From: Trypanosoma brucei
Taxonomy: Eukaryota
DNA length: 64,000 nt
Assembly (NCBI GenBank): GCA_000002445.1
Contig: CM000208.1
Coordinates: forward strand, 1,088,001 to 1,152,000
Direction: 5' to 3'
Shown here: positions 37,581 through 55,909 of the stretch, piece by piece
Layout: every line of letters begins with the position of its first letter
Position numbering within the stretch: the first letter of the stretch is position 1
Notes under the pieces: generated by a model
The model's database searches: none
What the model was told of the DNA's origin: nothing
Seen by the model: only the letters and a program-made list of their open reading frames with translations
Translations under genes and position numbers: made by a program

Positions 37581-40500
37581 GCAATATCGACATTCGTACA
37601 TTTTATTTTTTTTGAGGGATTTACCAGTGACTACCGTGCGTTGTCAATGTATCTGTTTTTCCATACATATCGCTGTACCTCCTGTGTGGCAGTAGAACGG
37701 GTATCAGTGAAGCTTCGGAAAAAATAAAACGTTTACAAACAACCCGAAGCAGAGGTGGTACGGGTTCACACGTGGATCCTGTGGTCACAACCAAATGTCA
37801 GTTTACTCAGCTCGCCTCTGTTTGTCCTTTTTATCTTTACTTGCGCCAACTGGCAATCTGGGGTAGTTGCAGAGAACTCTACTTCCTAGGAGGATTTCCG
37901 GTGTGTGGGGAAGTGATGTCTGCTCGGGTGGTTTCGTAACAAGGATGCGGCTGTTGTTTGGATCACGGCGTCCCTGTCGCTCCAACAGTGCAGCGGTTAC
38001 CCGCTCTTGGACCGATGCCCAAAAAGTAAAAAGCCATGACGGAGAGGAACCGTTGGTCGCTTGAGCTGCGGGACCGGAACCCGAAAAAAAAAGGTCAAAA
38101 TATCAAACAGCACAAATGGGTTTGCGCAGAACGTGGCTTTCAATCTAAGAGTGCAGGTGTACTAACATTGCGCGGGCCGCAGAAACACTACATGACCAAC
38201 GACAGTCCCTTTCCACCCCACACTGGCGGAACCATAATCCACACTGAATATGATAAAAAAACACACTCCAGTGAGGAATCTGTGGGTTCAAATTGATTTA
38301 GCAGAGAGGCTCGACAATACGTCATGGAATAAAGAGCAGAGGTCAGCTTTAGCACATCATTCCAGTGGTGGAGAAACGGATAGGCACACAAAGTGAAAAC
38401 CGACCGCATCAACCCAACACCAATGAACAAAGTGATAACACCACCAGTTCAACCCCTGGAGAAAATGAAGCGATATATGGACCTCGCGGCTACATATTTC
38501 ACACGTAAAATGGACTAGTGATACGTCACGGGATGAAATACTGCGAAGTACAACCGCAAACGGAGTCGCAAGAAATAAAGAGGCAACGGTAACTCGAAGA
38601 GAATGCAAGTATTCCAACTAAGGGCTCCCGAGCGCCGGAAACGAGAGGGCATCCAGTGAACTACCCAGCAGGCACATCTGAGCCGCTACAATGCACGCGA
38701 TGTGGCTTTGTATCACAATCAAAAGGGGGAACAACACCAAACACCAATATTCAACACCGCAGAGGCCATCCCCTGGAGAGTAACGCTGGTACAAAACGGA
38801 GCCGTTCCATCACAGAACAAGAGGTATCCCTCATTTGGGACACGGTAACTATAGGTGTAAATGACACCTGTTGCACGCAATGCCGTCATACGCATGTATC
38901 AAAAGACAGCCTGATGGGGCACTTCGGGGGAATGCATAGACAGCATCCCTTCTCCGTAGCAAAAGAATCTCCACCACCGCTCCGGAGCTTCAACGTCAGA
39001 GGATTTCATCTACACTTCACGTTCGTAAACCGAAATCAGACGTCCCACTCAACATCAGGTTCATCTATACATCGCCATCAAAAAACATGAAATCTGCGTT
39101 GAAAGGAAACATACACACTCCAACGACTGCGAAGGGAATCCCACCCACATACTCGTGCGCTCAAGCCTAAAGTGCTCCGCAGTTACTTCGGGCTTGAGGG
39201 CGAAAATATGCAGAAGATAGTGTTCACCAAGAACCTTGCACAATTCCTCCTAGAACTTGAGAAACCCCTCATTCTCTTCCAACATGTACTTTCTTCATTC
39301 GAGAGGAACACCCCTATAAAGGAGAATAGACTACACAAAAAGCTGCCCACTCCTCTGAATGAAAATTGTAAACTTCACTATGCTCTTCTACGCTTGGCTC
39401 AAAAAAAAAAAAAAGAGGCAGAAGCCTTTCACTCTCAAGTAAGCTGTTTTCGCCATTACGGAAGACCGAGGACTAAAAGCTGAACGTTTGCAACTGGTCA
39501 CGCATAACTAGTTCGGACATAACCTACAAATGTCTTCCGTAAAGCAAATATAGTGCGCTCCAACCTAGATGGCAATTCGTTGACGGCACGTCCACTGAGG
39601 AGCATTATAAAAAAAAAACGTTTAAGCGATTGAGGTCGCGACGACACAAGCAACTTGTACAGCGACCTCATAGATAATGAAATCGCCACCATCATTCGAT
39701 CAGCCGCACGACCGGCCGCCAGCAACGGCAGTAATGGGACGTGAAGATCGCTTTGATGCGCGTTTCACCCTAATCCAGTTTCGAGTGTAGCGTATTCCCC
39801 TTTGCGCTTCTGCTTTATGTCTCCCACCAAAATATCAACGATGCATATTAGGTGCACAGTTCTGCCCTTGTTTTCTTTGATTGCAATCTCATCTGCTATT
39901 CCACTGTTTATCCAAGCAACGTGGTGGGAGAAAATAAGCTGCACCGAAATCACCGCATTCCTTTTACTGACTGTGAAAATCACCCTTCCATACACAGCGC
40001 GGGATTCCATCCTCCGCGCGACTCTGTCTTTCATTGTTTCCAGTAACGTATTTAGCACCTTTTCAATTGGCACCGCTTCCGCACAATGACTGCATCCCAG
40101 TATTCAGATGTCCCTTTAATTCTGTATTCTTCCATGTTGCCGAAGATTACCGTTTCTGTGCCCGATGAAGCGTCTAAACTCACCAGTTCATTTGTTCAAA
40201 CGTTTCAGTCCTTATTGAATATCCCCATTTTTTTCGGCGTATGAGCCCTCCTCCATTTGTCTTTTGCGTTTGCTTTTATACCCACCCACGTATGGCAAAT
40301 TTGTGTACACTCTGGAGCCAATGTCCAAGGAGCTTTAAGTATGGAGTGCACCTTGATTTTTGGTGTCGGAGCACCAGACCTCCACTGAATTCAGCCATTC
40401 AGGTATTGGATGACTTCTAGGATATTGCCGGTTTATTATGTCTGAAAAGCATCCTCTTTTGGCGCTTGATTGCATGTAATATTCCGTCGCCCTCGTGTTT

Positions 40501-43500
40501 GCCGCTTTTCAAACAAATATCAGTCGTGCTTTTTTGAGCATGTCTTGTTTGTTTGCGTGCGACGAAATCTCAGCAATGTTGCCCACCAACTGGGGTTGGA
40601 TTCTTTTGTGGACTGGGTACGTTTCCTTTGCCATCCTGCACGGCCGTAGCGGAAAAACACGACGAGGGGATGCTGTTCTCGAGTTTTTGCTTTGTCTACC
40701 ATCTGTGTGTCTTCGTCCGCTAAAATCAACAATGCTCTGGAGAATCTGATCCGAGACCGGGCCTCAGCACAGCAGTGGGGAGTTTGAGATCCTTTGCAAG
40801 ATTTGCGGCATAACACAAGTGAAGGAACCGAGACCTGAATTTGGCAACCGAAAGGAGGATGAGGTGGCGGGGTTTGAGGCGATTGTGGGTGTTGACGGGA
40901 TCGCGGCAATGCCGGAACAACATGGAAGATGCCGTCAAAAAGACGATTAACATCTGCAGTGAGGTGGCAAAGAAACACAGCATTACAGCTCGTAGGGATG
41001 ATCGACGGAAGCGGAAAGTGTGCGGCAACGCTAGAAGAGATGTGTCACATTGGAACGGAGGCGGTGCGTGATTCCAGGAAAACGGGAAGTTGTTGGGACA
41101 ATTAAACCGGTGCTACCGGTAACAATATCGGTGCCCCAAGGGATGCAGAGCTTGAGAGAGCAACAGAAATGTTGGCAGGCGATAGCGATCCCATGAGCCC
41201 CATAATCACTTTAAGGAAACGTTTCACTGGACGATTTTGAGAGGAAAGGAAACGCGAAATCTGGGCGTGGCAGCCACATTGGCCGCTAGCAAGGAATGAT
41301 TTCAAGTTTGGGCGGAATATTTTACGGAAATGAACGAAACTGCATCCGGAACGAATCATCAGGAAGAACTAAGCCCTAAGACCAGTTTCCCTATTAAAGT
41401 TTATTTACCATTGACCTCACAAAAATTTTGAAACTCAACGGTGAATCTAGCGGCTTTTCGGCTACTCCCCCAGACCTGGAAAAAAAAAACAGTTTCCCTG
41501 AACCCGAAAAGCTCTGCCCGCTCAGCAAACTTACGCCATGCACAATCCCGTGAAGGTGACACATCCCCAAAACACTCTGCACAGCCCATTTCGCTGGACT
41601 GCACACTTCTTTCATACCGCTAATATTTTCACCCCTAAATTAACGTGCCCGGACACTCACATGTATACCTGTAAAATTATGCAAGTGCTTTGACGAAGCT
41701 ACACCCACGTTGTGTTGGGTGCTTTTGTAATCCTATGGTGTTCAGCGCTCTCCCATACTTTAAAAAGCATACTACGCCGTTGTTTTTAGTACTACACCCT
41801 TCCCGTTTCCATTGGCACGCCCTCCGTAGTGGCATTTGCCGCCAGAATCCCTGTTCTAGAGGAGGTTTGTTGCATTTTTACGCTTCTTTCGGTAGCGGCC
41901 GTTTGTACGCACAGGGTGGTGTACATGCGTATATGTAGTGGTTGTTATTTTTTATGGAAAAAAAAAGCTGTTGAACCCTGTGACTTTAAGGTGCTGAAAA
42001 TAAGATTGGGACGAGGTTACATCTTATCCGTGGATAACCTTATAGGTGTGGAAGTGGGGGGACCATTCTCGAGAGTTACTTGGGGGTCAAACACACATAC
42101 AAGCGGCAGGCAAATACACTGAAAGGGGTGTGCCCGTGTTGGTGTTTGTGTGTGCGCGCAAATGTCGCCCCTGGCGTTTTTAATGGATATGTAAGCTTTG
42201 AAAGCAACCTCCTAGGGATTTGAAACATCTGTTGGATTCTGAAACTTGACAATTTCAGACTCGCGCAACACTGAGTAGCCTTTTTGACTTACTTACGTTT
42301 TGTGACCAAGCGGAGAAGTGAGGGAGACGCGATGGCGAAGAACCACTTCTTCAGATTCACTAGTTGGGGTAACAAAAGTTCCAGCCCCCTTTCAGGCGTA
42401 GTGAACAGCGGAGGCACAACTAATGAGGGCGGTGGATTCTTCACCAACTTCGACCCACCTCATTAAAATGAATGCCTCCTTACCGCGCCAACGCAACGGC
42501 AGGTGGCTAAATCGCGCATATTTTTGTGCCCATTCCCTCGCCACACAACTCTATGAAAATATCTTCCTCGAGGAGCTAATGGGAAAACATATCTCAGTCA
42601 CCATTTGCGAACGCAACTTCGTATGTTGAAGCGGGGGTTGTGTGAGGTGGGAACCGCGAAGGAAAGGTTGTACGTTGTGGTGGCGGTTGTGAGGTGGCGC
42701 TGTTTTTTTTTTCCTCCCTTTTTTTCTTGAGTGGGGATTACGGGGTTGCCGGTTCGTGGAGTATTATAACGCATGCTTTCCACCTGTAAGCTGCGGTGGT
42801 CCTCCTTTCCCCCAATCATCTCGCCCCGTACGGACAATAATGGAAGTGAAGTTTGTTTTGAGTGTGGCGTTGTCAGACCATTTGGAGGAAGTTATAGTTA
42901 AGGGATATAAGTCCCCGTGGAGAAAGTAAACGCCTGTCCAAATACTTATTCTATGTCACATTGTACGGAAACGCCACCACCCATATACTGGTCGTACCGT
43001 CAGTTGAAGTTCTCCATCCTGGCGTCAACGAAGTGCTTTTAAGGGTTCTCCTAGCGTCTAAACTCGTCCACTTTCACTGATGCCGTTTGGGTACACTCCC
43101 TCCAACCCAACCTTAACTAGCCTCTCTACACACCGCTTCATATCTTCAAACACATTTTTGTACCACCGTGAACTTTTGTTCTACACCTTTATTATGACAC
43201 ACATCCGTAGGAAGTAGCATCCCCTCTCCGCCACAAAAAAAGAAAATTATTGGGTGCGACAGTGTTCCCAGTATAATGGCTCTCGCCATGTGTTTTTTGG
43301 TTTTATTTTTCAGTGAGCCGTTCGCAAAGGTGTATTTCCTCCTCCGTAAGCTTGGCCTGTGCTACAAACATTGATACGATATCATAATATTTCCACATAA
43401 CCCCCTCAATATCATGACTACCTCCCCACATGAACCACATTTGCTCCGATAAGCGCCTTCCCACACCCACACACACCCCCCACACACACACACGCTGACT

Positions 43501-44323
43501 GAAATCTTAAACTACATAGGGGAATACCCTATTTGCATCACAGCGAAATTCACCTTGGCTGTGGGAACCCCACCGAACAACTTCACGCTTGCAAATTTAC
43601 TCGGATCACAACGGATACTTAAAAATTTTCCCAACACAACTACATTCCACACCGCAGTGTGGCACCCCACGAGGTGTCCAAAATGAACATCCTCTCAATT
43701 TTCCTTATTCCTCACATACTTACAAAACAGAAGAGAAGCACATGCGGGGAGGAGGGGGGGGCGAGGAAAGATGCACCCAACCCATTTCCATCGGATATCA
43801 TAAATCACCAGGGGTAACTTGTTCTTTTTTTTTTTTTAAGTCTTCCCAAACCCTCCCCAAATATCAAAACGCCCCCCCCCCCAGCCCACAACACCACCAG
43901 AAATTGGTGGCAGAAATCGCTCCCCTCCCTTTCCGGTCTTTTCGTTGGCCGGTGAAGTGCAGAATGGAAAACATCACGTCGAGTTCACCTTCACTACGCA
44001 CCAACTATCCGCACTCTTCGCCTCCACAACGATGCGGTACATCCTCAGAACCCCACCACCTCCAAAAAAGAAGGCGGTGATGGAATGTTATTATCCCTGT
44101 CTTTCCTTCTTTTCCATCGTGAATATTAGCGCTATCAATAATACCCTCACATAATATCTCTACACAAGCCCATTACAGACACCGCTTCAGCTAGTTTTCA
44201 TCCCTTTGGCGGTATATCTCGATGGGGAAATTATGCGTCATTCACCCATGATATCATCACAACAAGTAAACATACCACACACCAATTCGGAGTGTCAGAG
44301 AATGTGGTATGATGTTGTTGGGT
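37581..44323. other. Convergent strand-switch region (transcription termination zone), 6.7 kb, gene-free
   Basis: Plus-strand genes end at 37580 and minus-strand genes end at 44324. Only short unconvincing ORFs lie between. Homopolymers cluster near the right edge: G10 at about 43747, T15 at 43815 and C13 at 43865. Confidence 0.6.
38593..39090 (+). pseudogene. ATG-less ORF encoding two C2H2-type zinc-finger motifs; a candidate remnant of a degenerate retroelement or decayed gene
   Basis: A stop-to-stop frame spans 38593..39090 with no ATG; the ORF track starts it at a GTG at 38656. It carries CTRCGFVSQSKGGTTPNTNIQHRRGH (C-x2-C ... H-x3-H) and CTQCRHTHVSKDSLMGHFGGMH (C-x2-C-x12-H-x4-H). It is isolated in a gene desert and flanked by stops in all frames. 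Confidence 0.3.
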
Positions 44324-45493
44324 CTACTTTTTATTCAGAGGTCCAATAAGCCACCGGGGGTTCGCGGCGTTTGAAACGTTGCAGACAGTACTAAATTTTA
44401 CGTACTTACGAGAGCCCCACACGGTGTGGATTTCAGTAGTATAACGTTCCAACAAGTATTTGTACGCTTCCCGTTGGGTGGAAGAGTCCCGTAGTGCCCT
44501 ATACCAACTCGTCTCGTTGATGAATTGGAGCATCTTTTCGCTTCGAGCGGCGGGTGGGCCTGGGAAGTGCAAGATCATGCCATTTTTAACCGGCACCCCG
44601 GACGGATAGTGAAAATATCGTGTCTCGTAATCGAGAGACATTATTCCCCTTCGAAGCAACAACTTTCGATTCGCATGTTTTGGCCTGGTAACACTCCATA
44701 TAAACACCATTGTCCACATGCTCTGGTCGCACCACCACTTGAAACTCCGTCGTTTCAGAGCGAAGAAAACCTCCAAAGCTTCCTTTAGTGCCCACACTCT
44801 GGCTATCATCCCTCCTCCATTAAGGTGTGATTCCCCCGAGGGAGTTTCCCTCAAAAGAGCTTGCGTTCCCTCTTTAATGGAAACCGCGAGTGCTCCCTCA
44901 TAGAGGTTCATACACATATCCCTCGGTTTAACCTTCCGAGTGTCTACACCCGTCATGATATACGTTTGTGGGGCATGGCAATTCTTTTCAGCGGCGAATA
45001 ATAACGGTGGTGCCATTTTCCCATGAAGAGTGTCTTCCTCGCTAAACAACTCTCGCGTGCTCGGTGTTGTGTTCATAAAATACTCGATTGCTTCTTCTCT
45101 TCTCGCTGCTTCTGAGAAGAACGTATCGCCGCCGTCAAATATCACCATCACATCATTATCCTGCATCCTCTTCCACAACATATACTTTCGAATCCACGCC
45201 CACCTCCATGCATGCACATAAACCGCACCTGCGCCCACCGTCGCAACTCTCACATTTGTAAGAACAGAACTCAGAAGCATTCGACACCACCCTGGGGAAG
45301 GTTTCGTTTGCACCACAACATAATACACTCCTGGCGAATGGTCATTTAAACTACTATTTTTCACCCACCGCTTGGCCTCCCTCTTCCTGAAATCCATTAC
45401 CCCCATAAACATTAACACAATCAACAGCATTACCGCCGCCATGACATATAATCTTTTTCTCGCATCTCCCCCAACCCAGGGCCCCTTTAACAT
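44324..45493 (-). CDS. Type-II membrane glycosyltransferase-like protein (short cytoplasmic tail, one TM anchor, ~340-aa lumenal domain with a DGGD acidic motif)
   Basis: The listed ORF 44324..45703 begins with a 70-aa F-rich translation of the pyrimidine tract. The first plausible ATG is at 45493 (MLKGPWVGGDARKRLYVMAAVMLLIVLMFMGVM...). The architecture and the VMVIFDGGDTFF motif resemble the trypanosomatid UDP-sugar glycosyltransferase family. Assignment is by architecture only. Confidence 0.55.
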   Translation of the reverse strand: MLKGPWVGGDARKRLYVMAAVMLLIVLMFMGVMDFRKREAKRWVKNSSLNDHSPGVYYVVVQTKPSPGWCRMLLSSVLTNVRVATVGAGAVYVHAWRWAWIRKYMLWKRMQDNDVMVIFDGGDTFFSEAARREEAIEYFMNTTPSTRELFSEEDTLHGKMAPPLLFAAEKNCHAPQTYIMTGVDTRKVKPRDMCMNLYEGALAVSIKEGTQALLRETPSGESHLNGGGMIARVWALKEALEVFFALKRRSFKWWCDQSMWTMVFIWSVTRPKHANRKLLLRRGIMSLDYETRYFHYPSGVPVKNGMILHFPGPPAARSEKMLQFINETSWYRALRDSSTQREAYKYLLERYTTEIHTVWGSRKYVKFSTVCNVSNAANPRWLIGPLNKK

Positions 45494-45910
45494 AAACCAA
45501 CCTTTCTCAGAAAAATGAAAAGAAAAAAAGAATACAGAAAAAGATTTTACAACAAAACAAAAAGGCATAAATAAGCAATATCCATACAGTCTCGATTCAT
45601 TGGAGGAGAATATGAGATAAGTGACAAACATGCCTCCACCGCAATATGGAACCACAACAACAAAAAAAAAAAACATCACCCGTTTAGTATATATAAACCA
45701 CAAAAAGAAATTATAGCCGCCTCCAGGGCAGCGTGTACGTATATTACGCTATAAATTGTAATGGAAATATATTTATTTAAAATAACGTTTGAGGATATGC
45801 GCTTTTGTATTCCACCGGAGAAGCGGATGCATACATATACGCATACACATATATACACTATGGTATACACAAAATAAAATAGCAAATTCGAATAAGAATA
45901 AAATAGTTGT

Positions 45911-46651
45911 TTACGCTAAAAGAAAAAAAGGGATGAGAAACATTGCTTTACCAGCATTTGAAGAAAAGTGGCATGTGTTGGTGACCGGTGCAGGTCGCGG
46001 TGACTCCGTGGGACCGGGTGCCTCATTTGATGCATTTGTGGTTCCTTTTTTACCAACTTGAGTCTCTTCTCCATCTTTTCCCTTTCCCTTTCCATTTCCA
46101 TTTCCATTTTCTCCTTCTCCTTCTCTTTCTTTTTCCTCTTCCTTTCCTTTCCCACCAGATCCGCTTTGAACTTTACCACTTTCCGCTTTATCGTTTTTAC
46201 TGTCACTTCTTCCCCCTCCAGCACCATTTGTTGTACTCTTTTGTTTTTCATTGGTTGCGGGTTTACACACATCCACACCCCAGTTTGCATTGGCGTGTCC
46301 GACACCGTGCGGATTTACGTTCCCTCCTCCACCGGGAAAAGCTTGCGTCAATGCACCGATGTCACAAGTGTAGTTTCGGTGATCTCCCGGATACGGAATT
46401 TCTATTATACAGAAGGGACTCCGCTCATTACTGACTTGTTGGGCCGCATGGAATCGACAGTTTGTCCGGACATATTTACACAAACCGGCGATGCCCGCGG
46501 GCCCTTTATCCTCCTGCATAGTTTTGACATCAGGACAGGGAGGCGGTCCCAATGGTGGGTCCACTTCTCCCATTGGATATTGGACCACATTTCCTCTTCC
46601 AAATAATACCGACAGTTCAATTAACACAAGCAACACTTTCAGGTTATTCAT
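45911..46651 (-). CDS. Putative GPI-anchored cell-surface protein, copy 1. It has a signal peptide, a ~90-aa six-cysteine domain, a G/K/E/N-rich low-complexity stalk and a C-terminal hydrophobic GPI signal
   Basis: The true ATG is at 46651 (MNNLKVLLVLIELSVLFGRG...); the ORF track starts at a TTG at 46657. The protein ends ...CHFSSNAGKAMFLIPFFLLA, a small-residue omega site followed by a hydrophobic tail. Spurious overlapping ORFs in other frames come from the low-complexity stalk. Confidence 0.65.
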   Translation of the reverse strand: MNNLKVLLVLIELSVLFGRGNVVQYPMGEVDPPLGPPPCPDVKTMQEDKGPAGIAGLCKYVRTNCRFHAAQQVSNERSPFCIIEIPYPGDHRNYTCDIGALTQAFPGGGGNVNPHGVGHANANWGVDVCKPATNEKQKSTTNGAGGGRSDSKNDKAESGKVQSGSGGKGKEEEKEREGEGENGNGNGKGKGKDGEETQVGKKGTTNASNEAPGPTESPRPAPVTNTCHFSSNAGKAMFLIPFFLLA

Positions 46652-47052
46652 TTCCAAACTTCCTGAAAACCAAAGTCACATTTTAAAAAAAAAAACACCA
46701 TTGGAATATTTTCATTCATACAACACAAGCCCTCACATTAAAACATCATTCACAGCAGTATGCTTTTAAAAATAGTGCATTGGGTTGAAAACACTACACT
46801 TTGAAGAACAAAAAACATCACCCGTTTAGTATATATAAACCACAAAAAGAAATTATAGCCGCCTCCAGGGCAGCGTGTACGTATATTACGCTATAAATTG
46901 TAATGGAAATATATTTATTTAAAATAACGTTTGAGGATATGCGCTTTTGTATTCCACCGGAGAAGCGGATGCATACATATACGCATACACATATATACAC
47001 TATGGTATACACAAAATAAAATAGCAAATTCGAATAAGAATAAAATAGTTGT

Positions 47053-47772
47053 TTACGCTAAAAGAAAAAAAGGGATGAGAAACATTGCTTTACCAGCATT
47101 TGAAGAAAAGTGGCATGTGTTGGTGACCGGTGCAGGTCGCGGTGACTCCGTGGGACCGGGTGCCTCATTTGATGCATTTGTGGTTCCTTTTTTACCAACT
47201 TGAGCCTCTTCTCCATCTTTTCCCTTTCCCTTTCCATTTCCATTTTCTCCTTCTCTTTCTTTTTCCTCTTCCTTTCCTTTCCCACCAGATCCGCTTTGAA
47301 CTTTACCACTTTCCGCTTTATCGTTTTTACTCTCACTTCTTCCCCCTCCAGCACCATTTGTTGCACTCTTTTGTTTTTCATTGGTTGCGGGTTTACACAC
47401 ATCCACACCCCAGTTTGCATTGGCGTATTCGACACCTGTCGGGTCGCGGTCGTCGCCGGCAGGAAAAGCTTGCGTCAACTCACGTGTGTTGCATGTGTAG
47501 TCACGTTTATCTCCCGGATACGGAATTTCTATTATGCAGAAGGGACTTGGTTCATCCGTCATTTTTTCGTTTGCGCCGACCCGACATTTGGTTTTCACGA
47601 AATTGCACACATTTATGACACCATCGGGCCCCTTGCTCGCTTCCCACACGTAAGCGGGGGGACAGTGACCCGGTCCCAATGGTGGTCCTTCCACGGGATC
47701 TTGGGCCAAATTTCCTCTTCCAAATAATACCGACAGTTCAATAAAAACGAGCAACACTTTTATGCTATTCAT
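47053..47772 (-). CDS. Putative GPI-anchored cell-surface protein, copy 2. It is a paralogue of copy 1 with a diverged N-terminal cysteine domain
   Basis: ATG at 47772 (MNSIKVLLVFIELSVLFGRG...). The C-terminal ~130 aa are virtually identical to copy 1. The N-terminal ~110 aa are ~60% identical with cysteine positions conserved. Confidence 0.65.
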   Translation of the reverse strand: MNSIKVLLVFIELSVLFGRGNLAQDPVEGPPLGPGHCPPAYVWEASKGPDGVINVCNFVKTKCRVGANEKMTDEPSPFCIIEIPYPGDKRDYTCNTRELTQAFPAGDDRDPTGVEYANANWGVDVCKPATNEKQKSATNGAGGGRSESKNDKAESGKVQSGSGGKGKEEEKEREGENGNGKGKGKDGEEAQVGKKGTTNASNEAPGPTESPRPAPVTNTCHFSSNAGKAMFLIPFFLLA

Positions 47773-49029
47773 TTCCAAACTTCCTGAAAACCAAAGTCAC
47801 ATTTTTAAAAAAAAAACACCATTGGAATATTTTCATTCATACAACACAAGCCCTCATATCAAAATACCATTCACAACAGTATGATTTAAAAATAGTGCAT
47901 TGAGTTGAAAACACTACATCATGCATAGCAGCGTGTCCACCGAATAACCCAATCCCACAATCACCATTGATTACACGTGGGAGACACCCACTAACAAGTG
48001 TGGTTATTTAACCTTTTTTTTTAAAAAAAAAGACGTTGTCATAAGTAAAAAAAAAACAGAAACACAAAGGCACACACACACACGTATTTATTTATTTATG
48101 TACGGGGAAGTAACTTTTATTTCATGTGGGCAGTATTAAAAAGACGACAAAATTGCGTAAAGAGGAGAGGCAGGAAAAGGAATTATGACAAGAATACAGA
48201 CACATGCATCTCCAACAAAATGTTATTGCAGCCGAGGGGCTCAGACATGTTTTAGGGGAAATACATAAAACACGGGCCCTTCTCTATGGCCAATGATTCA
48301 GAGGAAAAAGAAACAAAAAAAACAAAAAGAAACAACATATGCAAATCAACGAGCAGAACTGGAGGACAAAACAAATGACAGAGAGTACTTCAACTTCTTT
48401 TTCATTAATCCCCCCCCTTCCGTCCCGCACGAGTGGGATAAAAGTAACAAACAACTCGGCAACCAAAGTTTTTTTTTTAAAAAAAAAAGACTTCGTTTAA
48501 CAGAAACAAAAAAAACAAACAAAAACACACAATTATCTGTTAGAGGAATGGTCACGTAACCAATAAAACAATGCACTCATCCGAGACGAAGGATTTAACA
48601 AGCTGACAAATAAACGATACATAAAACCTCACGCAGCCTTTTGTTTAGCAAAAAGCCGAGTCGCAACAGGGCTCTATTAATTCGTTTTCATTATTGAGGT
48701 GACATGATAGTGAGACAATATCCATATAAGGATGGAAAGACACACAAGCACACACAAAAAAACAAACAAGGAAAGTTAATTACTTCTATTATGAAAGTAG
48801 AGTGCCCGGTATATCGCAGTTCTAACAACGATAGTGCTGTGAATTTCATGTAAACAGTTGGGAGTTAAACAACTCTGTGCAACATCATTGTGAGTTAAAG
48901 ACATACGCACATATTCTGTATTATCCATCCTCATCATTCTGCTACTTTCCAGTCATCTCTCCATCTCTATATATTTCTTTTTTTTTCTTATCTTATGGGA
49001 TAAGAGACATCTGGTTCCATATTAATACA

Positions 49030-49521
49030 TCAAAGTGGAATGTTGTGTAGATTTGGGCATTTGTGTGTGTCCGTTACTTCTGAGGAAATGGCATTTGTGT
49101 GATATCGCAATTTTAAATTCCACAGCACTTCACGTGTCGTTTCCTTGCGCTTAAGCGAATGGAGAAGAACTTCCACCTCCAGGTGTCCTTCATTTTCTCT
49201 TCCCACCACTGCGTAACTAAATTGGCCGCGCCATTTTCTCCTAATCAAATCATCTTTGAAGAATTTCATGAAGAGATTTCCCACACGATCGATCTCGCTG
49301 TGAGTTTGTGGGACTTTACACTTCTCTACCCATATTTCTTTTCGTGTTTCTGCCGGACTCCCAATAATATGATGAACAAATAAAGCCCATTCATCCTTTA
49401 GTGTGGCGGCTACGGGATTTCTTTTTATCATTTCCTCTAATTCGCTACAATCCGCCTCTGACATGTTTGGGGCGGGTGTTTCCCGCCTAAACTTTTTCAT
49501 AAACTTGCCGAAGAAACTCAT
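49030..49521 (-). CDS. Hypothetical protein (about 163 aa)
   Basis: The ORF track starts at a TTG at 49545. The first ATG is at 49521 (MSFFGKFMKKFRRETPAPNMSEADCSELEEM...). No recognised domain. Positioned between the spacer and the duplicated genes. Confidence 0.4.
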   Translation of the reverse strand: MSFFGKFMKKFRRETPAPNMSEADCSELEEMIKRNPVAATLKDEWALFVHHIIGSPAETRKEIWVEKCKVPQTHSEIDRVGNLFMKFFKDDLIRRKWRGQFSYAVVGRENEGHLEVEVLLHSLKRKETTREVLWNLKLRYHTNAISSEVTDTHKCPNLHNIPL

Positions 49522-49545
49522 TAAAGGAAAGGAAAAACAAAACAA

Positions 49546-51088
49546 AACAAGTTCACAAGCTGCTACGGAAATCTTCGCAAAAGAAAAGAAAAGAAAAAAA
49601 GGGAAAAAATGTACTGCGTGAAGAAGAAGAAGGAAAGAAAGAAGATAAGGAATATAAGGAATATAAGAAAAGCGTAGAATGAAGCAGAGACTTCCCCATC
49701 TTATCCATCATATATATATATATATATGAACAAGCGCTCATAACCCCACATTAAATAAACAAATTTGCATACACACTCGAACATGTGCAAACGACAAGAA
49801 AAAAGGGGGGAAAAAACTACCCTCATCTCAACGCCAAGACTGCCGGTACTCCTTGTTTTTTCTTTTGCTGTTGTTGTTACTGTTGTTTCTTTTCTTTTAA
49901 GATAACAGAATAAACACCGGCTCAAGCCACAACCGTCCATACAATAATCACTTTATCTCTTTCTCTCCCTCCTTGCTTCAAGCAAATCTTGCCGCCACCA
50001 CATGGGAAAGAGAAAGAAAGAGACACAGAGAGAAAGGGTGAGTTGGAAAACAAAAGAAAGAAAGAAAGAAAGCAGAAAAAAGAGGAAAAAAATAAATAAA
50101 TAATAGTGATATTAATAACGAACAAGTAAGCACATGAAAGGATGAAAGACAGGTGTTAAATACACATATAACAGCCCGTGCTCATGTGCAAACAAAACAC
50201 AAACAAAAGGAAGGAAAAGAAAAAGAAAAAAAAGAAAAAAAAGAGGGGGGGACGCACAAATGTAAGTAAGCAAAGCGAATAGTGAAAATGCCGACTCGCA
50301 CAAACCAGCGGTGGACGCCCTCACGCAAAAGCCACACGCATCAATACCAACAGTGGGGAAGGGGAAAAAAAAAACAAACAAAAGAGAAAAGAAAAAACAA
50401 AAAAAAACAAAAACGAGATCACCCCTCAGCCAAACCGCAAAGCGGAAAAGTAAAAAAAAAAAGGTGGGGAGTAATATGTTAATTCTGATAAAAACAAAAA
50501 CAAAGCACACGCAAAATAGATGCACTACGCAGAGGTCAAATAATGAAGTATCATTTAACAGATACGACAAAGATAAACAACCAAACAAAAAAGATAACAA
50601 TAACAATAGTAATAGTAAGGAAAATAACATAACACAAGTAAACCGCAAAAAAAAAAACGCCAAAAGAAAGCAAAAAAAAAAAGTACAGCAAGGAATGTGT
50701 GTAAAAGTACGGTAATCGACCAAAACCAGCGGTCCACCGTGTTGCTCCACACGCATATTTTGCCAACCGCCCACCTCCATCATCACCGCCTCCTCTCCAA
50801 TGAGGAAAAAAAAAAAAAGAAAAAAAAACAAAAAAAAAACTACCCTCCTTCCCCTCTTTGTTTTTTTTTGTTTTGGATCATCCCCTGCATTAGCCACAAT
50901 TGCTGTGCGTTTGTGTATGTGTGTGGGTAAATGAATATTTACAGAATTATTATTATTATTACTACTTTCCCCCACATACCACTATTGCAAAGAAACAAAA
51001 AAAAAAAAGAAAACTGTAACAAAAACGCAGTGTACGCATACATGTTACACAAGTATAAATGTATATATGCGTGTGCGTAGGAAGAACT

Positions 51089-51120
<32 letters not shown>

Positions 51121-52443
51121 TATTATTTCCTCAAGAATTTTGTCTTCTTCTTCTTTTAGATAATCAAAGACATTACAACAGTGATGAAGCACGTTGTGAG
51201 CATATTTCATGCAGGGGACGGGATGAGGTAAGGAGGAGTTAAAAGAAAGAAAGGAAAGAAAGAAAAAAAAAAGAAAGGGAGAGGAAAGATAAAAGAAGCA
51301 AGCAAAGCAGGAAGCAGGAAGCAAAGAAAAAGAAAGAAAGCAAGAAAAAAGCAAGAAAAGTTGCGCAAAGGTCAGGTACATGGTGACTTAACCAGACTTC
51401 GATTTGGGGTGGAGGAGGAGAAAAAAAAAACAGATGGAGAATCGGAGGGGTGAGAAGAGTTTTTTTCTTTTTTTTTCTTCCTTTGTCGTTGATGTTGGTG
51501 TCGCGGTGTCGAGGTGGAGGGAGGGCGCCGGGGGGAGAGGGAGACAGAGAGAGGATTTTTTTTTTAAAAAGGGAAGGAACGTTAGGCGCTGTGGCTGCCG
51601 GATCCCCCTTTATTACGTTTGTTCTTTTTTTTTTCTTTTTTGTTTCCCTCTTTTTTCTCATTCTTACCTTCCTTCCACGCAGCATCTCCTTTCGTTTCGG
51701 TCTCACACGTACCTCTTTACTTCCTTCTCGTTAAACTCCTTTTTCTTTTTCTTCCTTTTTTTTTATTTTCTCTAAGATGCTCCAGCATCATGGTAGCAGA
51801 ACCGACAATGATACTGGCTGATGTTGCGGGAAAGAAAAGAGAAGATAAGAAACAAGGGGGTACCCCAGTTGTTCTTTTCTTCCTTTGCTTTATTAGTTTC
51901 ATTTGTTTTTTTTAGTTTTTATCTTAATTTTGCGCCGCCGTTGTTGCTGTTGCCACACACCTCCCTCCGCTCCCCTACCTCCATTTCACCGAGTCAATAC
52001 AGTTTTGAACAGGCATACACATACAACAAAAAAAAACAATCAACGCCACTGTTTTGATTTTTTTTCTTTTTACACAGTAACGATGTGCTGCACAGCTCTT
52101 TTCGCCTTGCAGCACCACGTACACATACGCATTACATCGCAAATTTCCCTCGTTACAACGTGTTTAACGAAAATTTTCCTTCTTTCACTAAGAAAGCAAA
52201 CAAACAAACAAACAAGCCCTTGCCCAAGTTTTATTTCATTAGAAACAGTTTTTCTCTAACGCCTAACTTTCGCAGTCTTGACTTCCCTCATTTCCGCACC
52301 TGTTTGCTCCCATCCCCATCCCCATCGCCATTCCCATTCCTTTCATCCTTTTTCTTCCTCTTTTGTATGTGTTTTCCTCTTCCTCATTCGTCAGTCCATT
52401 TCTTCCTGTTGTCGTAACCCCTTTTCTCTCCATGAGCCTCCCA
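49546..52443. repeat. About 2.9 kb low-complexity intergenic spacer. The plus strand is purine-rich (GAAA/GA/A-run) from 49.55 to 51.4 kb, then pyrimidine-rich from 51.6 to 52.44 kb. Microsatellites are embedded
   Basis: Read directly: (gaaa)n around 50055..50077, (TA)13 at 51089..51115, (TA)8 at 49711..49727, a (tta)n variant at 50947..50965 and long A/T runs. The listed ORFs here (for example 50112..50975, F/L-rich) are translations of this low-complexity DNA. Confidence 0.85.
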
Positions 52444-54162
52444 CTATGTTCCTTTCTTGCTTTCCGGATGATGCAGTAACGTAAAACCTTGCTGTGGGTC
52501 CCATATGTTACCTCCCTTCATAATATCCATTGGAAACTGCTGTTGTGGATAACCCTGCGGCAGACCAATGAGTGTCTGTTGTCCCGGAAGCATTAAAGGC
52601 ATGTATTGAGTGGGAGTCATGATGGGAACCGCTTCTTTTGCTACACCCGGAAGCGACAAGGCAGGTCCACCAAACTCATCCGTTCCAACAATCGTTGGAA
52701 TACCAGCCATACCGGGGAGTATGTGAGTACCAATGAAACCCTCATGCATTCCCTTCTCCATTACTTGCGGTGCAGGTTGGGCCCATCGTTTCTTATTCTT
52801 TTGATTGCCGTTCTTTCGAGCCAGCTCACGCTGCTGGCGCACCAGTTTTGATTCCACCTTCACACCATGGGGAGAGTTCTTAAGCATCCTTTGCAGTGGC
52901 ATAATGGAGTCCCGCAGCTGAGTGAACTGCTTCTCCTCGGTAGAAGTCACTATCGCTGTTTGGATAACGTAGTTTGCAAAACTATCCGTCAAGAGCTTCG
53001 GCAGGATCTGCGGATCGGTCAGCTCATCCACAAGAAGCTGCCGCACATCTGGTGTCGCACTCTTCAGGCACTTTTCAATAACGTTGCTGCAAAACTTATT
53101 GCATGAAAGTGCCGCCACGTTGTGGAGCATTTGCCTTATTATCCGGTTTGTGTAATCAGCCCCCTCGCTGCCTGTACTTGACCGCTGCGAGAGCTCCTGC
53201 TCATGATCCAAAATGAATTGAATCACATAGTTTCCAAACGGATCGTGAACGAGTTTGATGGTATCGTGGACGATTGTGTCCATCAATGTTGAGAAGTATG
53301 GCTCTGGCGCCCACTGAAGGCATTTCTGAATGACGCAACATCCGTGTCGGTTCCCGCACACATCCACGCAGCTTTCAGGGAATTTGCCGTAGAGCAGCTG
53401 GTGTATATGCGCCAGCTTTGACGAAGAATCGTCACCCGCAGCACCACTTTCCCACAGCGGGGTGCCTCGAGCCGCCGCCAGCAGTCGCGAAACCGCGTGG
53501 TTACCGTCGATGTCTTTGCAAAGTTCGATAATACACTCCGAGAAGCACTGTGCGCTGAACTCGACCTCCTCCAAACTTTTCAAGGAGTCAAAAACCTTTT
53601 GCATCGCCCTACTTCCATTGGTATCACAGCAGATCTGAGGTATTTTGTCCTTCAGTACCTCAAGAAGCAAAAGAAACTCAGACAGATCGCTTTCTGAAGC
53701 CGCTATGTAGTCTGTGGAGTACAGTACAGGGGCGACTTTGCCTCCACTCTTCAACATCCCGAGGGCATGTTGGATCAACTCACTCCCGTTGGCATCGACC
53801 ATCAGCTCACCCGACCTGGCAATCATCGCGTGTACGAACGTGTTGCGAGACAGGTGTTTTTTCCTATTGACTTCGTCATCACTTGTGCACTCCTTCAGCG
53901 CTTTCAATGCATCGACGTACCGGATCGCTTCCCGCAAACCGTTGGCGTCCCGCATGCAAAAATCCAACAGGTAACTCTCCCGGTCATCATCTCCACCGAA
54001 TTTTACTACCAGTTCCTCGACCCTCCTAGTTTCATTGTTATTTGACTTCTCGTTTATTTGTTGTTCAGCAGTTCTTATCTCGTTGTTAACCTCGCTCAAC
54101 TGCTTTAAGATGTTCTGGCGCCGTAAGTAAAGAGTTGTGATGGTTTCCTCATCCGACGACAT
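52444..54162 (-). CDS. Pumilio/PUF-family RNA-binding protein (572 aa)
   Basis: ATG verified at 54162. PUF repeat cores are present: DPFGNYVIQFILDH, DSFANYVIQTAI, HGCCVIQKCLQ, DGNHAVSRLL and SNVIEKCL. The N-terminus carries a short coiled-coil segment. Confidence 0.9.
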   Translation of the reverse strand: MSSDEETITTLYLRRQNILKQLSEVNNEIRTAEQQINEKSNNNETRRVEELVVKFGGDDDRESYLLDFCMRDANGLREAIRYVDALKALKECTSDDEVNRKKHLSRNTFVHAMIARSGELMVDANGSELIQHALGMLKSGGKVAPVLYSTDYIAASESDLSEFLLLLEVLKDKIPQICCDTNGSRAMQKVFDSLKSLEEVEFSAQCFSECIIELCKDIDGNHAVSRLLAAARGTPLWESGAAGDDSSSKLAHIHQLLYGKFPESCVDVCGNRHGCCVIQKCLQWAPEPYFSTLMDTIVHDTIKLVHDPFGNYVIQFILDHEQELSQRSSTGSEGADYTNRIIRQMLHNVAALSCNKFCSNVIEKCLKSATPDVRQLLVDELTDPQILPKLLTDSFANYVIQTAIVTSTEEKQFTQLRDSIMPLQRMLKNSPHGVKVESKLVRQQRELARKNGNQKNKKRWAQPAPQVMEKGMHEGFIGTHILPGMAGIPTIVGTDEFGGPALSLPGVAKEAVPIMTPTQYMPLMLPGQQTLIGLPQGYPQQQFPMDIMKGGNIWDPQQGFTLLHHPESKKGT

Positions 54163-55013: not shown

Positions 55014-55877
55014 CTAAACGCTCCTGCGGCGCTTGAGTCCCGATACATGACCGCCTTCAGAAACACTGCCTGTAGACGCTCGGAACAGTCTTGAGCCAAA
55101 ACTTAGCAGAGAACTCAGCATTGATGTCGGTCCAGCCGCGGTCACACGACCGGACACATTTCCACATGAAGCACTGCACACATCCTCTGACCTCTCAGTC
55201 TTTGTACACTCACCTGCAGAGCCGTCAAGTTCCTCCTGTTCCTTCTGCTCTTCCCCTTCTTCCTTTGATTTGGATAGCTGCATATCGCTCTGTTCCAAGC
55301 GGGCGACGAGGACCTTTTTGATCCCACAGGTGGATAGCCCTCTTTTATGGAGAAGCCGACGAAGTTGCACGACAATCATGGCGTTGTACCCTGTTTGTTC
55401 ATTCGCTTGTTTAGCAGCACGACGGCGGCCTCGCTGCGGTGACACGTCACTGTATTCCGAGCTGCTGGTCGGATCGGAGGAACAAAATGATGGACAGGAC
55501 CATGAGGATTCGGAATCGGTTTCTAATTTGGGGGCCATGCTGTCCGACAAACTTGCCCGCAAAAACCGGCAACACTTTCTCAGCGATTTGTAAAGCTGAG
55601 CACCATTCCGCCTCGTCGTTGGGGGGTGCAGGGTGCCTGACCCATCCGCCAAAGTATAGCCGCCGTACGATACAAGAAGTTCGTTCCCAATACTTTCGTA
55701 ACCTGGTGACCCTGTGGTTCCATTACTGCCCGTCTCTGCATGACCATTGTCAGACATACTTGGTGACTTCAGTCGAAGTAAATCGGAAACCCGAGGTGGA
55801 AGGGGATCTGACATCGACCCGAGAAATTGGGCATCATCGTCAGGAACGTACACAATTTTCCGCCCGGGTTTCCTCAT
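55014..55877 (-). CDS. SAP-domain protein (287 aa), otherwise Ser-rich and low-complexity
   Basis: The SAP motif is NAMIVVQLRRLLHKRGLSTCGIKKVLVARLEQ (L..L+..L...GL...G.K..L..RL). The listed ORF extends to 56045 through a (CA)n tract translated as VCVCVCVC. The first ATG after the pyrimidine tract and AG is at 55877 (MRKPGRKIVYV...). Confidence 0.55.
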   Translation of the reverse strand: MRKPGRKIVYVPDDDAQFLGSMSDPLPPRVSDLLRLKSPSMSDNGHAETGSNGTTGSPGYESIGNELLVSYGGYTLADGSGTLHPPTTRRNGAQLYKSLRKCCRFLRASLSDSMAPKLETDSESSWSCPSFCSSDPTSSSEYSDVSPQRGRRRAAKQANEQTGYNAMIVVQLRRLLHKRGLSTCGIKKVLVARLEQSDMQLSKSKEEGEEQKEQEELDGSAGECTKTERSEDVCSASCGNVSGRVTAAGPTSMLSSLLSFGSRLFRASTGSVSEGGHVSGLKRRRSV

Positions 55878-55884
55878 TCCTTTG

Positions 55885-55909
55885 CACACACACACACACA
55901 CACACACAC
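55885..55909. repeat. (CA)12 dinucleotide microsatellite immediately upstream of the SAP-domain gene start codon
   Basis: cacacacacacacacacacacacac read directly. Confidence 0.9.

What the first reader, a model, noticed from the sequence alone, without database searches (positions are those of the whole stretch)
45664..47920. Tandem pair of mosaic GPI-anchored cysteine-framework surface-protein genes
Two 1142-bp units lie head-to-tail. Each encodes a ~240-aa protein with a signal peptide, a six-cysteine ~90-aa domain, a G/K/E/N-rich stalk and a GPI-type C-terminus (...SSNAGKAMFLIPFFLLA). The UTR flanks and the C-terminal ~130 codons are virtually identical between copies. The N-terminal domain is only ~60% identical, although the cysteine spacing is conserved. 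This mosaic pattern suggests concerted evolution of the flanks and stalk, with diversification of the exposed N-terminal domain. That is what one expects of a host-facing or developmentally regulated surface family. I cannot place the cysteine domain in any family I know.
Basis: seen in the sequence. Interest (0 to 1): 0.7.

Follow-up and report, generated by a model that had tools for sequence, protein, structure and literature searches.

The report
Known trypanosome tandem surface-protein gene pair
These are two already-annotated neighbouring genes of Trypanosoma brucei (Tb927.10.4380 and Tb927.10.4390). They encode small, lipid-anchor-predicted surface proteins found only in this species, with anciently different head domains and near-identical tails and flanks kept alike by recombination.

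Summary
Two head-to-tail units (45662-46803 and 46804-47918) each carry one minus-strand gene: copy A (246 aa) and copy B (239 aa). The window is T. brucei TREU927 chromosome 10, and the genes are Tb927.10.4380 and Tb927.10.4390.

Prior literature:
- The pair is catalogued as tandem array 97e (Jackson 2007).
- It is listed as a predicted signal-peptide plus GPI-anchored family (Savage 2012).
- Both transcripts rise in stumpy forms and after REG9.1 or CTR9 knock-down.

The mosaic is confirmed and quantified:
- Head domain: 97/288 nt differ (dS 0.91, dN 0.37, dN/dS 0.40).
- C-terminal 123 codons plus 3'UTR: 5/619 nt differ (dS 0).

The heads are therefore ancient and under relaxed purifying selection; positive selection is not shown. 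The rest was homogenised or duplicated recently. T. b. gambiense and T. equiperdum have one gene at this site. It has an A-type 5' end, a B-type head and a third version of the Cys5-Cys6 loop, which points to modular recombination and copy-number change.

The six-cysteine head is an orphan. It has no Pfam or PDB match and no homologue outside T. brucei among 1.84 billion representatives. AlphaFold confidence was low.

Verdict: already-known genes of modest interest.

The parts
45662..46803 (-). Repeat unit 1 (copy A, Tb927.10.4380 / Tb10.70.2850): 5' flank, CDS and 3'UTR
   Evidence: blastn self-alignment; global alignment; exact protein match to XP_822686
46804..47918 (-). Repeat unit 2 (copy B, Tb927.10.4390 / Tb10.70.2840)
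   Evidence: exact protein match to XP_822687
45911..46651 (-). CDS of copy A, 246 aa plus stop
   Evidence: Length 741 nt matches Jackson 2007 Table S3 and Rico 2017 S2 Table
47053..47772 (-). CDS of copy B, 239 aa plus stop
   Evidence: Length 720 nt matches Rico 2017 S2 Table
46592..46651 (-). Copy A predicted signal peptide (codons 1-20)
   Evidence: Hydropathy peak at residues 3-18; signal peptide predicted in Jackson 2007 and Savage 2012
47713..47772 (-). Copy B predicted signal peptide (codons 1-20); 6/60 nt differ from A
46265..46591 (-). Copy A six-cysteine head domain (residues 21-129, A type); carries an NYT sequon that B lacks
   Evidence: divergence 33.7% nt, dS 0.91, dN 0.37
47395..47712 (-). 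Copy B six-cysteine head domain (residues 21-126, B type)
   Evidence: Codons 22-94 match the T. b. gambiense gene except for one non-synonymous (V27M) and one synonymous change
46382..46420 (-). Island of near-identity inside the divergent head (SPFCIIEIPYPGD; 1 synonymous change in 39 nt). Counterpart in B is 47509-47547
45974..46264 (-). Copy A low-complexity G/K/E/N/S/T stalk (residues 130-226) with one NAS sequon. Counterpart in B is 47116-47394, lacking 12 nt
   Evidence: composition; TRF period-12 and period-36 arrays; indel
45914..45964 (-). Copy A predicted GPI signal: SSN small residues, AGK spacer, AMFLIPFFLLA tail. Preceded by an unpaired Cys227. Counterpart in B is 47056-47106
   Evidence: BigPI and FragAnchor positive in Savage 2012
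45664..45910 (-). 3'UTR/intergenic stretch of copy A. It differs at 2/247 nt from that of copy B (46806-47052)
46685..46695 (-). T11 polypyrimidine tract upstream of copy A. The first downstream AG (46663-46664) is 11 nt before the ATG. This is an inferred trans-splice signal. Counterpart in B is T10 at 47807-47816, with AG at 47784-47785
   Evidence: sequence inspection; the functional assignment is inferred from standard trypanosome gene structure
46796..46812 (-). Junction between the units: the truncated T-run of unit B, about 9 nt of filler (CTTCAAAG), then the start of unit A (GTAGTGTTTTCAAC)
44324..45631 (-). Context: ESAG3-like gene (Tb10.70.2860). It is the last gene of the transcription unit and starts about 30 nt after the unit-A T-run
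   Evidence: 99% identical to a protein named 'expression site-associated (ESAG) protein'; 57% to one named 'ESAG3-like'
37581..44323 (.). Context: convergent strand-switch (transcription stop) region. Plus-strand ORFs end at 37580 and minus-strand ORFs end at 44324
   Evidence: ORF map. The CTR9 paper places the two genes 2-3 kb from a convergent stop

Best explanation
The region holds two tandem paralogous genes of Trypanosoma brucei brucei TREU927 chromosome 10: Tb927.10.4380 (copy A) and Tb927.10.4390 (copy B). Both are on the minus strand. They are the second- and third-to-last genes of an RNA polymerase II polycistronic unit. An ESAG3-like gene and a convergent strand-switch region follow them.

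Each unit carries its own polypyrimidine/AG trans-splice signal and a near-identical 3'UTR. Each gene encodes a small secretory protein made of:
- a signal peptide;
- a ~110-aa six-cysteine head of an orphan, T. brucei-restricted family;
- a ~95-aa flexible, charged and probably glycosylated low-complexity stalk;
- one extra cysteine;
- a C-terminal GPI-addition signal.

Inferred function: the head is held on the stalk at the parasite surface, or is shed. Expression is mainly in transmission stages (stumpy bloodstream forms and early fly stages). This would make the pair part of the REG9.1-repressed cohort of T. brucei-specific surface genes. No ligand is known.

The mosaic reflects recombination history, not rapid evolution of the head. 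The two head types are old (dS about 0.9) and remain under relaxed purifying selection (dN/dS about 0.4). The C-terminal half, the 3'UTR and, less completely, the 5' flank were homogenised by gene conversion or unequal crossing-over, or were duplicated recently. Modules (5' end, head, Cys5-Cys6 loop) are shuffled between haplotypes, and copy number varies: two copies in TREU927, one in T. b. gambiense and T. equiperdum.

Shown: gene identity, architecture, divergence pattern, orphan status, synteny and copy number. Taken from the literature: the signal peptide and GPI predictions and the transcript regulation. Inferred: GPI anchoring, surface display and the function of the stalk.
For: - Identity: exact matches to XP_822686 and XP_822687. 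CDS lengths and spacing match published coordinates.
- Coding and functional: both ORFs are intact, all indels are in frame, six Cys are conserved, and dN is below dS in the head.
- Topology: the only two hydrophobic segments are the N- and C-termini. Signal peptide, BigPI and FragAnchor are positive, with N- and O-glycosylation predicted.
- Mosaic: 33.7% versus 0.8% nt divergence; dS 0.91 versus 0.
- Recombination, part 1: B and the T. b. gambiense gene differ by only one non-synonymous and one synonymous change over codons 22-94. They then differ at 23 nt in the next 22 codons.
- Recombination, part 2: the T. b. gambiense 5' flank and signal peptide are A-type at 13 of 14 informative sites, while its head is B-type at 86 of 93.
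- Copy number: the gambiense and equiperdum loci have a single unit that aligns to both window units.
- Context: end of a transcription unit, with an ESAG3-like neighbour.
- Regulation: stumpy/slender ratios of 3.58x and 2.57x. REG9.1 RNAi gives logFC 1.26 and 0.86, adjusted P 0.016 and 0.019. CTR9 RNAi gives 39x and 7.8x. Tb927.10.4390 is preferentially expressed in proventriculus and bloodstream forms.
- Orphan status: no Pfam hit. HMMER against 1.84 billion representatives finds only its own cluster. No PDB hit.
Against: - No protein-level evidence was found for expression, GPI anchoring or surface location.
- The hydrophobic tail is short (11 residues) and the spacer is only 3-4 residues.
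- Transcript levels are low in culture (rpkm 0.8 and 3.6) and in fly stages (2-15 RPM). The CTR9 increase for Tb927.10.4380 could not be confirmed by RT-PCR.
- The genes are not listed in the base J/H3.V/PNUTS supplementary tables searched. Termination-linked silencing is therefore unsupported.
- With only four sequences, gene conversion between old paralogues cannot be separated from a recent duplication that captured two old alleles.
- Both AlphaFold models have low confidence (pLDDT 41 and 37). That the head is a single folded domain rests only on the conserved cysteines.
Confidence: 0.75

Rival explanations
1. Captured allelic dimorphism. The locus was single-copy, with two or more ancient allele classes of the head maintained by balancing selection. 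TREU927, or its lineage, acquired the tandem pair recently by unequal exchange between homologues. The identical flanks would then be young duplicate DNA rather than the product of concerted evolution.
For: - T. b. gambiense and T. equiperdum have a single copy.
- The A-type head occurs only in TREU927 among all database proteins.
- A/B divergence in the 3' part (5/619) is about the same as the TREU927-gambiense divergence over the same stretch (4/619).
- The junction carries about 9 nt of filler, as expected for a non-homologous duplication join.
- Modules are shuffled as they would be among recombining alleles.
Against: - The 5' flank and signal codons of A and B differ by 5.5-10%. That is too much for a very recent duplication unless the alleles also differed there.
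- No population data are available.
- Savage 2012 detected both transcripts with different expression profiles, though this would also fit alleles.
Confidence: 0.35
2. One reading: the exposed head is evolving fast under diversifying (immune or host-driven) positive selection, while the rest is constrained.
For: - Amino-acid identity of the heads is only 59%.
- The pre-Cys1 segment has pN/pS of 2.1, and the Cys5-Cys6 loop has 0.6-0.9 with three distinct versions.
- The surface-antigen analogy.
Against: - Head-wide dN/dS is 0.40, with dS 0.91.
- Third codon positions change most (31, 27 and 41 changes at positions 1, 2 and 3).
- The segment with pN/pS above 1 has only about 11 changes.
- The near-zero divergence elsewhere includes synonymous and non-coding sites (dS 0; 2/247 in the 3'UTR). 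That signals recombination, not protein-level constraint.
Confidence: 0.2
3. The proteins are not GPI-anchored surface molecules. They would instead be secreted or shed like ESAG9, retained in the endomembrane system, or scarcely translated.
For: - The C-terminal hydrophobic tail and spacer are short.
- mRNA levels are low.
- Rico 2017 notes that the co-regulated Family 5 and Family 7 proteins are not detected in stumpy proteomes and may be released.
- No proteomic mention of these genes was found in the main-text searches.
Against: - Two independent GPI predictors and a signal-peptide predictor agree.
- Small residues (SSN) precede the tail.
- Purifying selection and conserved cysteines argue for a translated, folded product.
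Confidence: 0.15
4. Assembly artefact: two divergent alleles of a single-copy gene were wrongly placed in tandem in the TREU927 reference.
For: The two other genomes examined have a single copy.
Against: - The join has a unique junction sequence.
- The 1142-bp spacing persists between the 2005 coordinates and the later assembly coordinates.
- The divergent heads would have let Sanger reads resolve the copies.
Confidence: 0.04
5. The head is a diverged peritrophin-A/CBM14-type chitin-binding domain that would bind the tsetse peritrophic matrix.
For: The first four Cys spacings (18, 6, 15, 14) fall inside the CBM14 consensus ranges as recalled from memory. Expression is in stumpy and proventricular stages.
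Against: - The fifth spacing is 32, against 4-14 in the consensus.
- Pfam CBM_14 gives no hit even at E <= 10, while three control seeds score E 5e-7 to 2e-11.
- hhalign probability is 0.16%.
- The Foldseek search returned nothing, though the model was weak.
Confidence: 0.03

Closest known systems
T. brucei-specific, stumpy-enriched, REG9.1-repressed predicted surface families (ESAG9 = cell-surface phylome Family 2; Families 5 and 7)
   Same: - Restricted to T. brucei.
- Small proteins (about 230-270 aa) with a signal peptide.
- Arrayed in tandem next to strand-switch regions.
- Transcripts raised in stumpy forms and after REG9.1 depletion.
   Different: - No detectable sequence similarity to any of them.
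- Only two members, so the pair is not listed in the phylome's family table (Table S1).
- Architecture of a six-Cys head plus a low-complexity stalk with a predicted GPI signal, and no transmembrane helix.
Procyclins (EP/GPEET) and other stalked GPI-anchored trypanosome coat proteins
   Same: - Small GPI-signal proteins.
- Much of the mature length is an extended, charged, low-complexity region.
- Stage-regulated expression.
- Tandemly duplicated genes.
   Different: - Procyclins have no cysteine-rich head, are transcribed by Pol I and are very abundant.
- Here the repeats are G/K/E/N-rich rather than EP or GPEET.
- Transcription is from the end of a Pol II unit, and mRNA levels are low.
Dimorphic merozoite surface proteins of Plasmodium falciparum (e.g. 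MSP2). The comparison is from general knowledge.
   Same: - A small GPI-anchored protein with conserved termini.
- A sharply bounded central or N-terminal block that exists as deeply divergent types.
- Modules that recombine.
   Different: - No homology.
- The variable block here is a cysteine-framed domain, not disordered repeats.
- The two types sit in tandem in one genome.
- No population evidence for balancing selection is available here.
Tandem gene arrays of T. brucei with partial gene conversion (Jackson 2007)
   Same: The pair is listed there as array 97e. The downstream ESAG3-like gene is one of only two cases of ectopic gene conversion reported in that study.
   Different: Most arrays are near-identical dosage repeats. 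This pair retains a 34% divergent block inside otherwise near-identical units.

Membership tests
GPI-anchored secretory surface protein (generic class) | Cleavable N-terminal signal peptide | tested here: met
   Hydrophobic residues 3-18 followed by small residues (G-R-G). Predicted by software in Jackson 2007 and Savage 2012.
GPI-anchored secretory surface protein (generic class) | C-terminal GPI signal: small omega-region residues, short polar spacer, hydrophobic tail, and no other membrane-spanning segment | tested here: met
   SSN, then AGK, then AMFLIPFFLLA. There is no internal hydropathy peak apart from one marginal window in B. BigPI and FragAnchor are both positive. The tail and spacer are short.
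GPI-anchored secretory surface protein (generic class) | Biochemical proof of the anchor and of surface location | not testable with these tools
   No protein-level data were found in the papers searched.
REG9.1-regulated T. brucei-specific transmission-stage surface cohort (functional grouping, not a homology family) | Restricted to T. brucei; stumpy-enriched mRNA; de-repressed by REG9.1 RNAi | tested here: met
   Homologues occur only in T. b. brucei, gambiense and equiperdum. Jensen 2009 Table 5. Rico 2017 S2 Table.
ESAG9 / phylome Families 5 and 7 (homology families) | Detectable sequence homology to family members | tested here: not met
   The word-indexed search and the exhaustive HMMER profile search returned only the pair's own clusters.
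Peritrophin-A / CBM14 chitin-binding domain | Match to the Pfam PF01607 profile, and six Cys with the consensus spacing | tested here: not met
   No hit at E <= 10, while control seeds hit at E 5e-7 to 2e-11. hhalign probability is 0.16%. The last Cys spacing is 32 residues.
Other cysteine-framework surface domains in Pfam (e.g. the VSG, s48/45 6-Cys, Ly6/uPAR and PAN/apple families) | Match to the corresponding Pfam or PDB sequence profiles | tested here: not met
   Pfam-A scans of the full-length proteins and of the head alone gave zero families. The PDB profile search gave only E > 4 noise.
Any known fold (structural membership) | Confident 3-D model matching a known structure | tested here: inconclusive
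   AlphaFold2 pLDDT was 41 and 37 with alignments of 3-4 sequences. Foldseek against the PDB gave one hit at E = 6.5.

The most novel reading that the evidence does not exclude
The locus encodes a T. brucei-only, new-fold six-cysteine head that exists as several ancient haplotype modules: two head types and three Cys5-Cys6 loop types. These would be maintained by balancing selection and reshuffled by recombination, on a GPI-anchored stalk displayed by stumpy and early fly-stage parasites. It would be a polymorphic transmission-stage ligand or antigen that contributes to T. brucei-specific vector or host interactions.
Probability: 0.2. Interest if true: 0.55.

Novelty: already known. Interest (0 to 1): 0.3.

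Why it matters
The transmission stages of T. brucei express several species-specific predicted surface families of unknown function. This pair belongs to that poorly understood cohort. It may add an unusually clear example of ancient head-domain variants kept inside recently homogenised gene units, with copy number differing between subspecies.

If the dimorphism proves to be maintained by selection, the head would be a candidate for a polymorphic host- or vector-facing ligand and a useful population marker. As it stands, the genes, their tandem arrangement, their predicted anchoring and their stage regulation are already on record. The practical gain is a sharper evolutionary description, not a discovery.

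Tried and rejected
- Pfam-A on the full-length proteins (E <= 1) and on the heads alone (E <= 10): nothing.
- Word-indexed search of 5.8 billion proteins: only T. brucei subspecies orthologues.
- Exhaustive HMMER profile search of 1.84 billion representatives: own cluster plus P0005. P0005 is an unnamed metagenomic tandem-repeat ORF. Its 35-residue, 40% match is repeated 11 times and does not conserve Cys1, so I rejected it as a repeat-inflated chance hit.
- PDB sequence profile search: only E > 4 hits to methionine aminopeptidase through the low-complexity stalk.
- Two AlphaFold2 runs (heads of A and B, with alignments of 3-4 sequences): pLDDT 41 and 37, unusable. Foldseek against the PDB: nothing. 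I ran no further search on such weak models.
- Peritrophin-A/CBM14 lead from cysteine spacing: rejected at the sequence level.
- Silencing by base J/H3.V/PNUTS-dependent termination: the genes do not appear in the supplementary tables held for two key papers. This is unsupported, though some of those files may be incomplete.
- Cell-surface phylome family assignment: the pair is not in Table S1.
- tRNA and Rfam scans of the window: none.
- Exact-sequence look-up of three neighbouring ORFs failed, probably because of start-codon choice or the included stop.
- More strains could not be examined. The protein collection holds only four distinct sequences of this family, and no tool searches other T. 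brucei genomes.


Full report
**1. What is in the sequence**

The window is Trypanosoma brucei brucei TREU927 chromosome 10. The two predicted proteins match XP_822686 (Tb10.70.2850) and XP_822687 (Tb10.70.2840) exactly. The CDS lengths (741 and 720 nt) and their 1142-nt spacing match the published coordinates for Tb927.10.4380 and Tb927.10.4390.

blastn aligns 45662-46798 with 46804-47918 at 88.6% identity (E = 0). The window holds no third copy.

Both genes are on the minus strand. Copy A runs 46651->45911 (246 aa). Copy B runs 47772->47053 (239 aa).

Each unit has a T10-11 tract 34-44 nt upstream of the ATG, followed by an AG 11 nt before the ATG. From the standard anatomy of trypanosome genes, I infer that this is the trans-splice signal.

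Unit A ends in a T-run. About 30 nt after it comes the start codon of the next gene.

**2. Protein architecture**

- Only the N-terminus (residues 3-18) and the C-terminus (last 11-12 residues) are clearly hydrophobic.
- Six cysteines are conserved in register: positions 39, 58, 65, 81, 96 and 129 in A.
- A 93-97-residue stalk follows. It is rich in G, K, E, N, S and T, has three hydrophobic residues and carries one NAS sequon. Copy A has an extra NYT sequon in the head.
- A seventh cysteine lies three residues before SSNAGKAMFLIPFFLLA.
- Savage et al. 2012 scored both genes positive for signal peptide, BigPI and FragAnchor, and predicted N- and O-glycosylation.
- Jackson 2007 lists the pair as tandem array 97e with a signal peptide.
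- Anchoring and surface location are therefore well predicted, but I found no experimental proof.

**3. The mosaic, quantified**

| Segment | A/B nucleotide differences |
|---|---|
| 5' flank | 8/146 |
| Signal codons | 6/60 |
| Head (codons 21-119) | 97/288, plus 9 gap columns |
| C part | 3/372, plus one 12-nt indel in the repetitive stalk |
| 3'UTR | 2/247 |

The longest identical run is 395 nt. Head versus 3' part gives Fisher P = 8e-51.

Nei-Gojobori estimates are as follows:
- Head: dS 0.91, dN 0.37, dN/dS 0.40.
- C part: no synonymous and three non-synonymous differences in 123 codons.

All indels are in frame. Third codon positions change most, with 31, 27 and 41 changes at positions 1, 2 and 3.

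I draw three conclusions from these figures:
- Both genes are under protein-level constraint.
- The heads are old lineages, not recently accelerated ones.
- The near-identity elsewhere extends to synonymous and non-coding sites, so it reflects recombination or a recent duplication, not selection on the protein.

Inside the divergent head there is an island of 39 nt (SPFCIIEIPYPGD) with a single synonymous change. At the surrounding 34% divergence this is very unlikely by chance. It suggests either a small conversion patch or strong constraint.

**4. Other genomes**

T. b. gambiense DAL972 and T. b. equiperdum each have one unit at the syntenic site. That unit aligns to the upstream flank of B and to the downstream flank of A.

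Their gene is modular:
- The 5' flank and signal codons match A at 13 of 14 informative sites.
- The head matches B at 86 of 93 informative sites, with only one non-synonymous (V27M) and one synonymous change over codons 22-94.
- The 22 codons between Cys5 and ANANW then carry 23 nt differences from B and differ from A as well.

This abrupt switch cannot be clock-like divergence. At least three old versions of that loop, two of the head and two of the 5' end exist and have been recombined.

The A-type head is found only in TREU927 among about 15 billion database proteins.

In the 3' part, A and B differ at 5/619 nt. That is about the same as the T. b. gambiense-specific differences over the same stretch (4/619). 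The homogenisation or duplication therefore dates to roughly the age of the subspecies radiation.

I cannot decide between two origins with four sequences: old paralogues with concerted evolution and loss of one copy elsewhere, or a recent duplication that captured two ancient alleles.

**5. Genomic and regulatory context**

Minus-strand ORFs run from 63922 down to 44324. Plus-strand ORFs end at 37580. The pair therefore lies at the far end of a polycistronic unit.

It is followed only by an ESAG3-like gene and a convergent strand-switch region. This agrees with the '2 kb, ESAG' and '3 kb' annotations in the CTR9 study. Jackson 2007 reported ectopic gene conversion involving that ESAG3-like gene, so the neighbourhood is recombinationally active.

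Transcript data from the literature:
- Low in cultured bloodstream forms: rpkm 0.8 and 3.6, against a median of 30.6.
- Raised 39-fold and 7.8-fold after CTR9 RNAi. The increase for Tb927.10.4380 was not confirmed by RT-PCR.
- Higher in stumpy than in slender forms: 3.58x and 2.57x.
- Raised after REG9.1 RNAi, together with ESAG9 and phylome Families 5 and 7: logFC 1.26 and 0.86, adjusted P 0.016 and 0.019.
- Tb927.10.4390 is preferentially expressed in proventricular and bloodstream forms. Tb927.10.4380 is low and constitutive by semi-quantitative RT-PCR.
- Low counts in fly stages in a later RNA-seq study.
- The genes are not listed in the base J/H3.V/PNUTS supplementary tables I could search.

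**6. The head domain is an orphan**

- Pfam-A gives nothing for the full-length proteins or for the heads alone.
- The PDB sequence profile search gives only noise.
- The exhaustive HMMER search of 1.84 billion representatives finds only its own cluster and one repeat-inflated artefact.
- Two AlphaFold2 runs were of low confidence (pLDDT 41 and 37), and Foldseek found nothing.
- A lead from memory failed. The first four Cys spacings fit the peritrophin-A/CBM14 consensus. But there was no Pfam hit while three control seeds hit strongly, hhalign probability was 0.16%, and the fifth spacing is far too long.

**7. Most likely mechanism**

Shown:
- Two intact, constrained tandem genes for small secretory proteins with a cysteine-framed head, a flexible stalk and a GPI-type tail.
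- Modular recombination and copy-number change.

From the literature: stage-regulated, REG9.1-repressed transcripts.

Inferred:
- The proteins are GPI-anchored.
- The stalk lifts the head towards or through the surface coat of stumpy and early fly-stage cells.
- The odd seventh cysteine near the anchor could make a membrane-proximal dimer.
- The ligand is unknown.

**8. Comparison, novelty and verdict**

In function and regulation the pair resembles the T. brucei-specific stumpy-enriched families (ESAG9, Families 5 and 7), but it shares no sequence homology with them. In architecture it resembles stalked GPI proteins such as procyclins. Its sharply bounded dimorphic block recalls Plasmodium MSP2; this last comparison is from general knowledge only.

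The genes, their tandem arrangement, their predicted anchoring and their regulation are already published. I did not find a prior description of three points:
- the dS contrast between the head and the rest of the unit;
- the three-way loop mosaic;
- the single recombinant copy in gambiense and equiperdum.

I rate the finding as already known, with an interest of 0.3.

Noticed in passing
window 44324-45631 (-): An ESAG3-like chromosome-internal gene lies directly downstream of copy A and is the last gene before the convergent strand-switch region. Its start codon lies about 30 nt after the T-run that ends repeat unit A, so the duplication boundary coincides with this gene's likely polypyrimidine tract. 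Jackson 2007 reported ectopic gene conversion between this gene and an array 1.17 Mb away.
   Followed up: partly
window 37581-44323 and 12115-16438: The ORF strand map shows a convergent strand-switch region (about 6.7 kb without long ORFs) and a divergent one (about 4.3 kb). No tRNA or Rfam family was found in the window, so the stop region has no recognisable RNA gene.
   Followed up: partly
L001 10001-10729 and L002 10001-10729, compared with window 47395-47712: The B-type head of TREU927 and the T. b. gambiense gene differ by only one non-synonymous and one synonymous change across codons 22-94. The surrounding locus differs by about 2-4%. The next 22 codons then differ at 23 nt. The near-identity may reflect recent exchange between subspecies or strong constraint.
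   Followed up: partly
L002 10001-10729 (T. b. equiperdum) compared with L001 (T. b. gambiense): These two single-copy genes differ almost only by non-synonymous changes and small rearrangements in the repetitive stalk (EKEREGEGENG versus EKEKERENGNG). The apparent dN/dS is above 6, based on about 9 changes. Slippage in the GAA/GGA-rich repeat is the probable cause, not selection.
   Followed up: no
window 46660-46680 and 47781-47801 (-): A minimal upstream ATG immediately followed by TGA (AAAATGTGAC) sits between the polypyrimidine tract and the predicted splice-acceptor AG of both copies. It would be present in the mRNA only if a more upstream acceptor is used.
   Followed up: no
window 52444-54162 (-), 55014-56045 (-), 36396-37580 (+): The neighbouring housekeeping genes have clear domains. 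One is a PUF RNA-binding protein. One is a SAP-domain protein. One has transketolase pyrimidine-binding and C-terminal domains and looks like a 2-oxo-acid dehydrogenase E1 beta subunit. The ORFs at 49030-49545 and 50112-50975 have no Pfam match.
   Followed up: partly
window 50220-51360: An AT- and purine-rich low-complexity intergenic stretch: a poly-A run of 34, (TA)13.5 at 51089-51115, and AAAG-type repeats at 51242-51359. GC drops to 0.38 over 48-52 kb.
   Followed up: no
protein P0005 (ENA metagenome contig, 5851 bp): A 752-aa ORF built of 11-12 tandem repeat units of about 57 aa. It gave the only non-trypanosome HMMER hit, through a short motif (W-Q-A-S-P-D-G-V-V-V-A-C) resembling VWEASKGPDGVINVC of the B-type head. 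I judged it to be chance inflated by repetition.
   Followed up: yes
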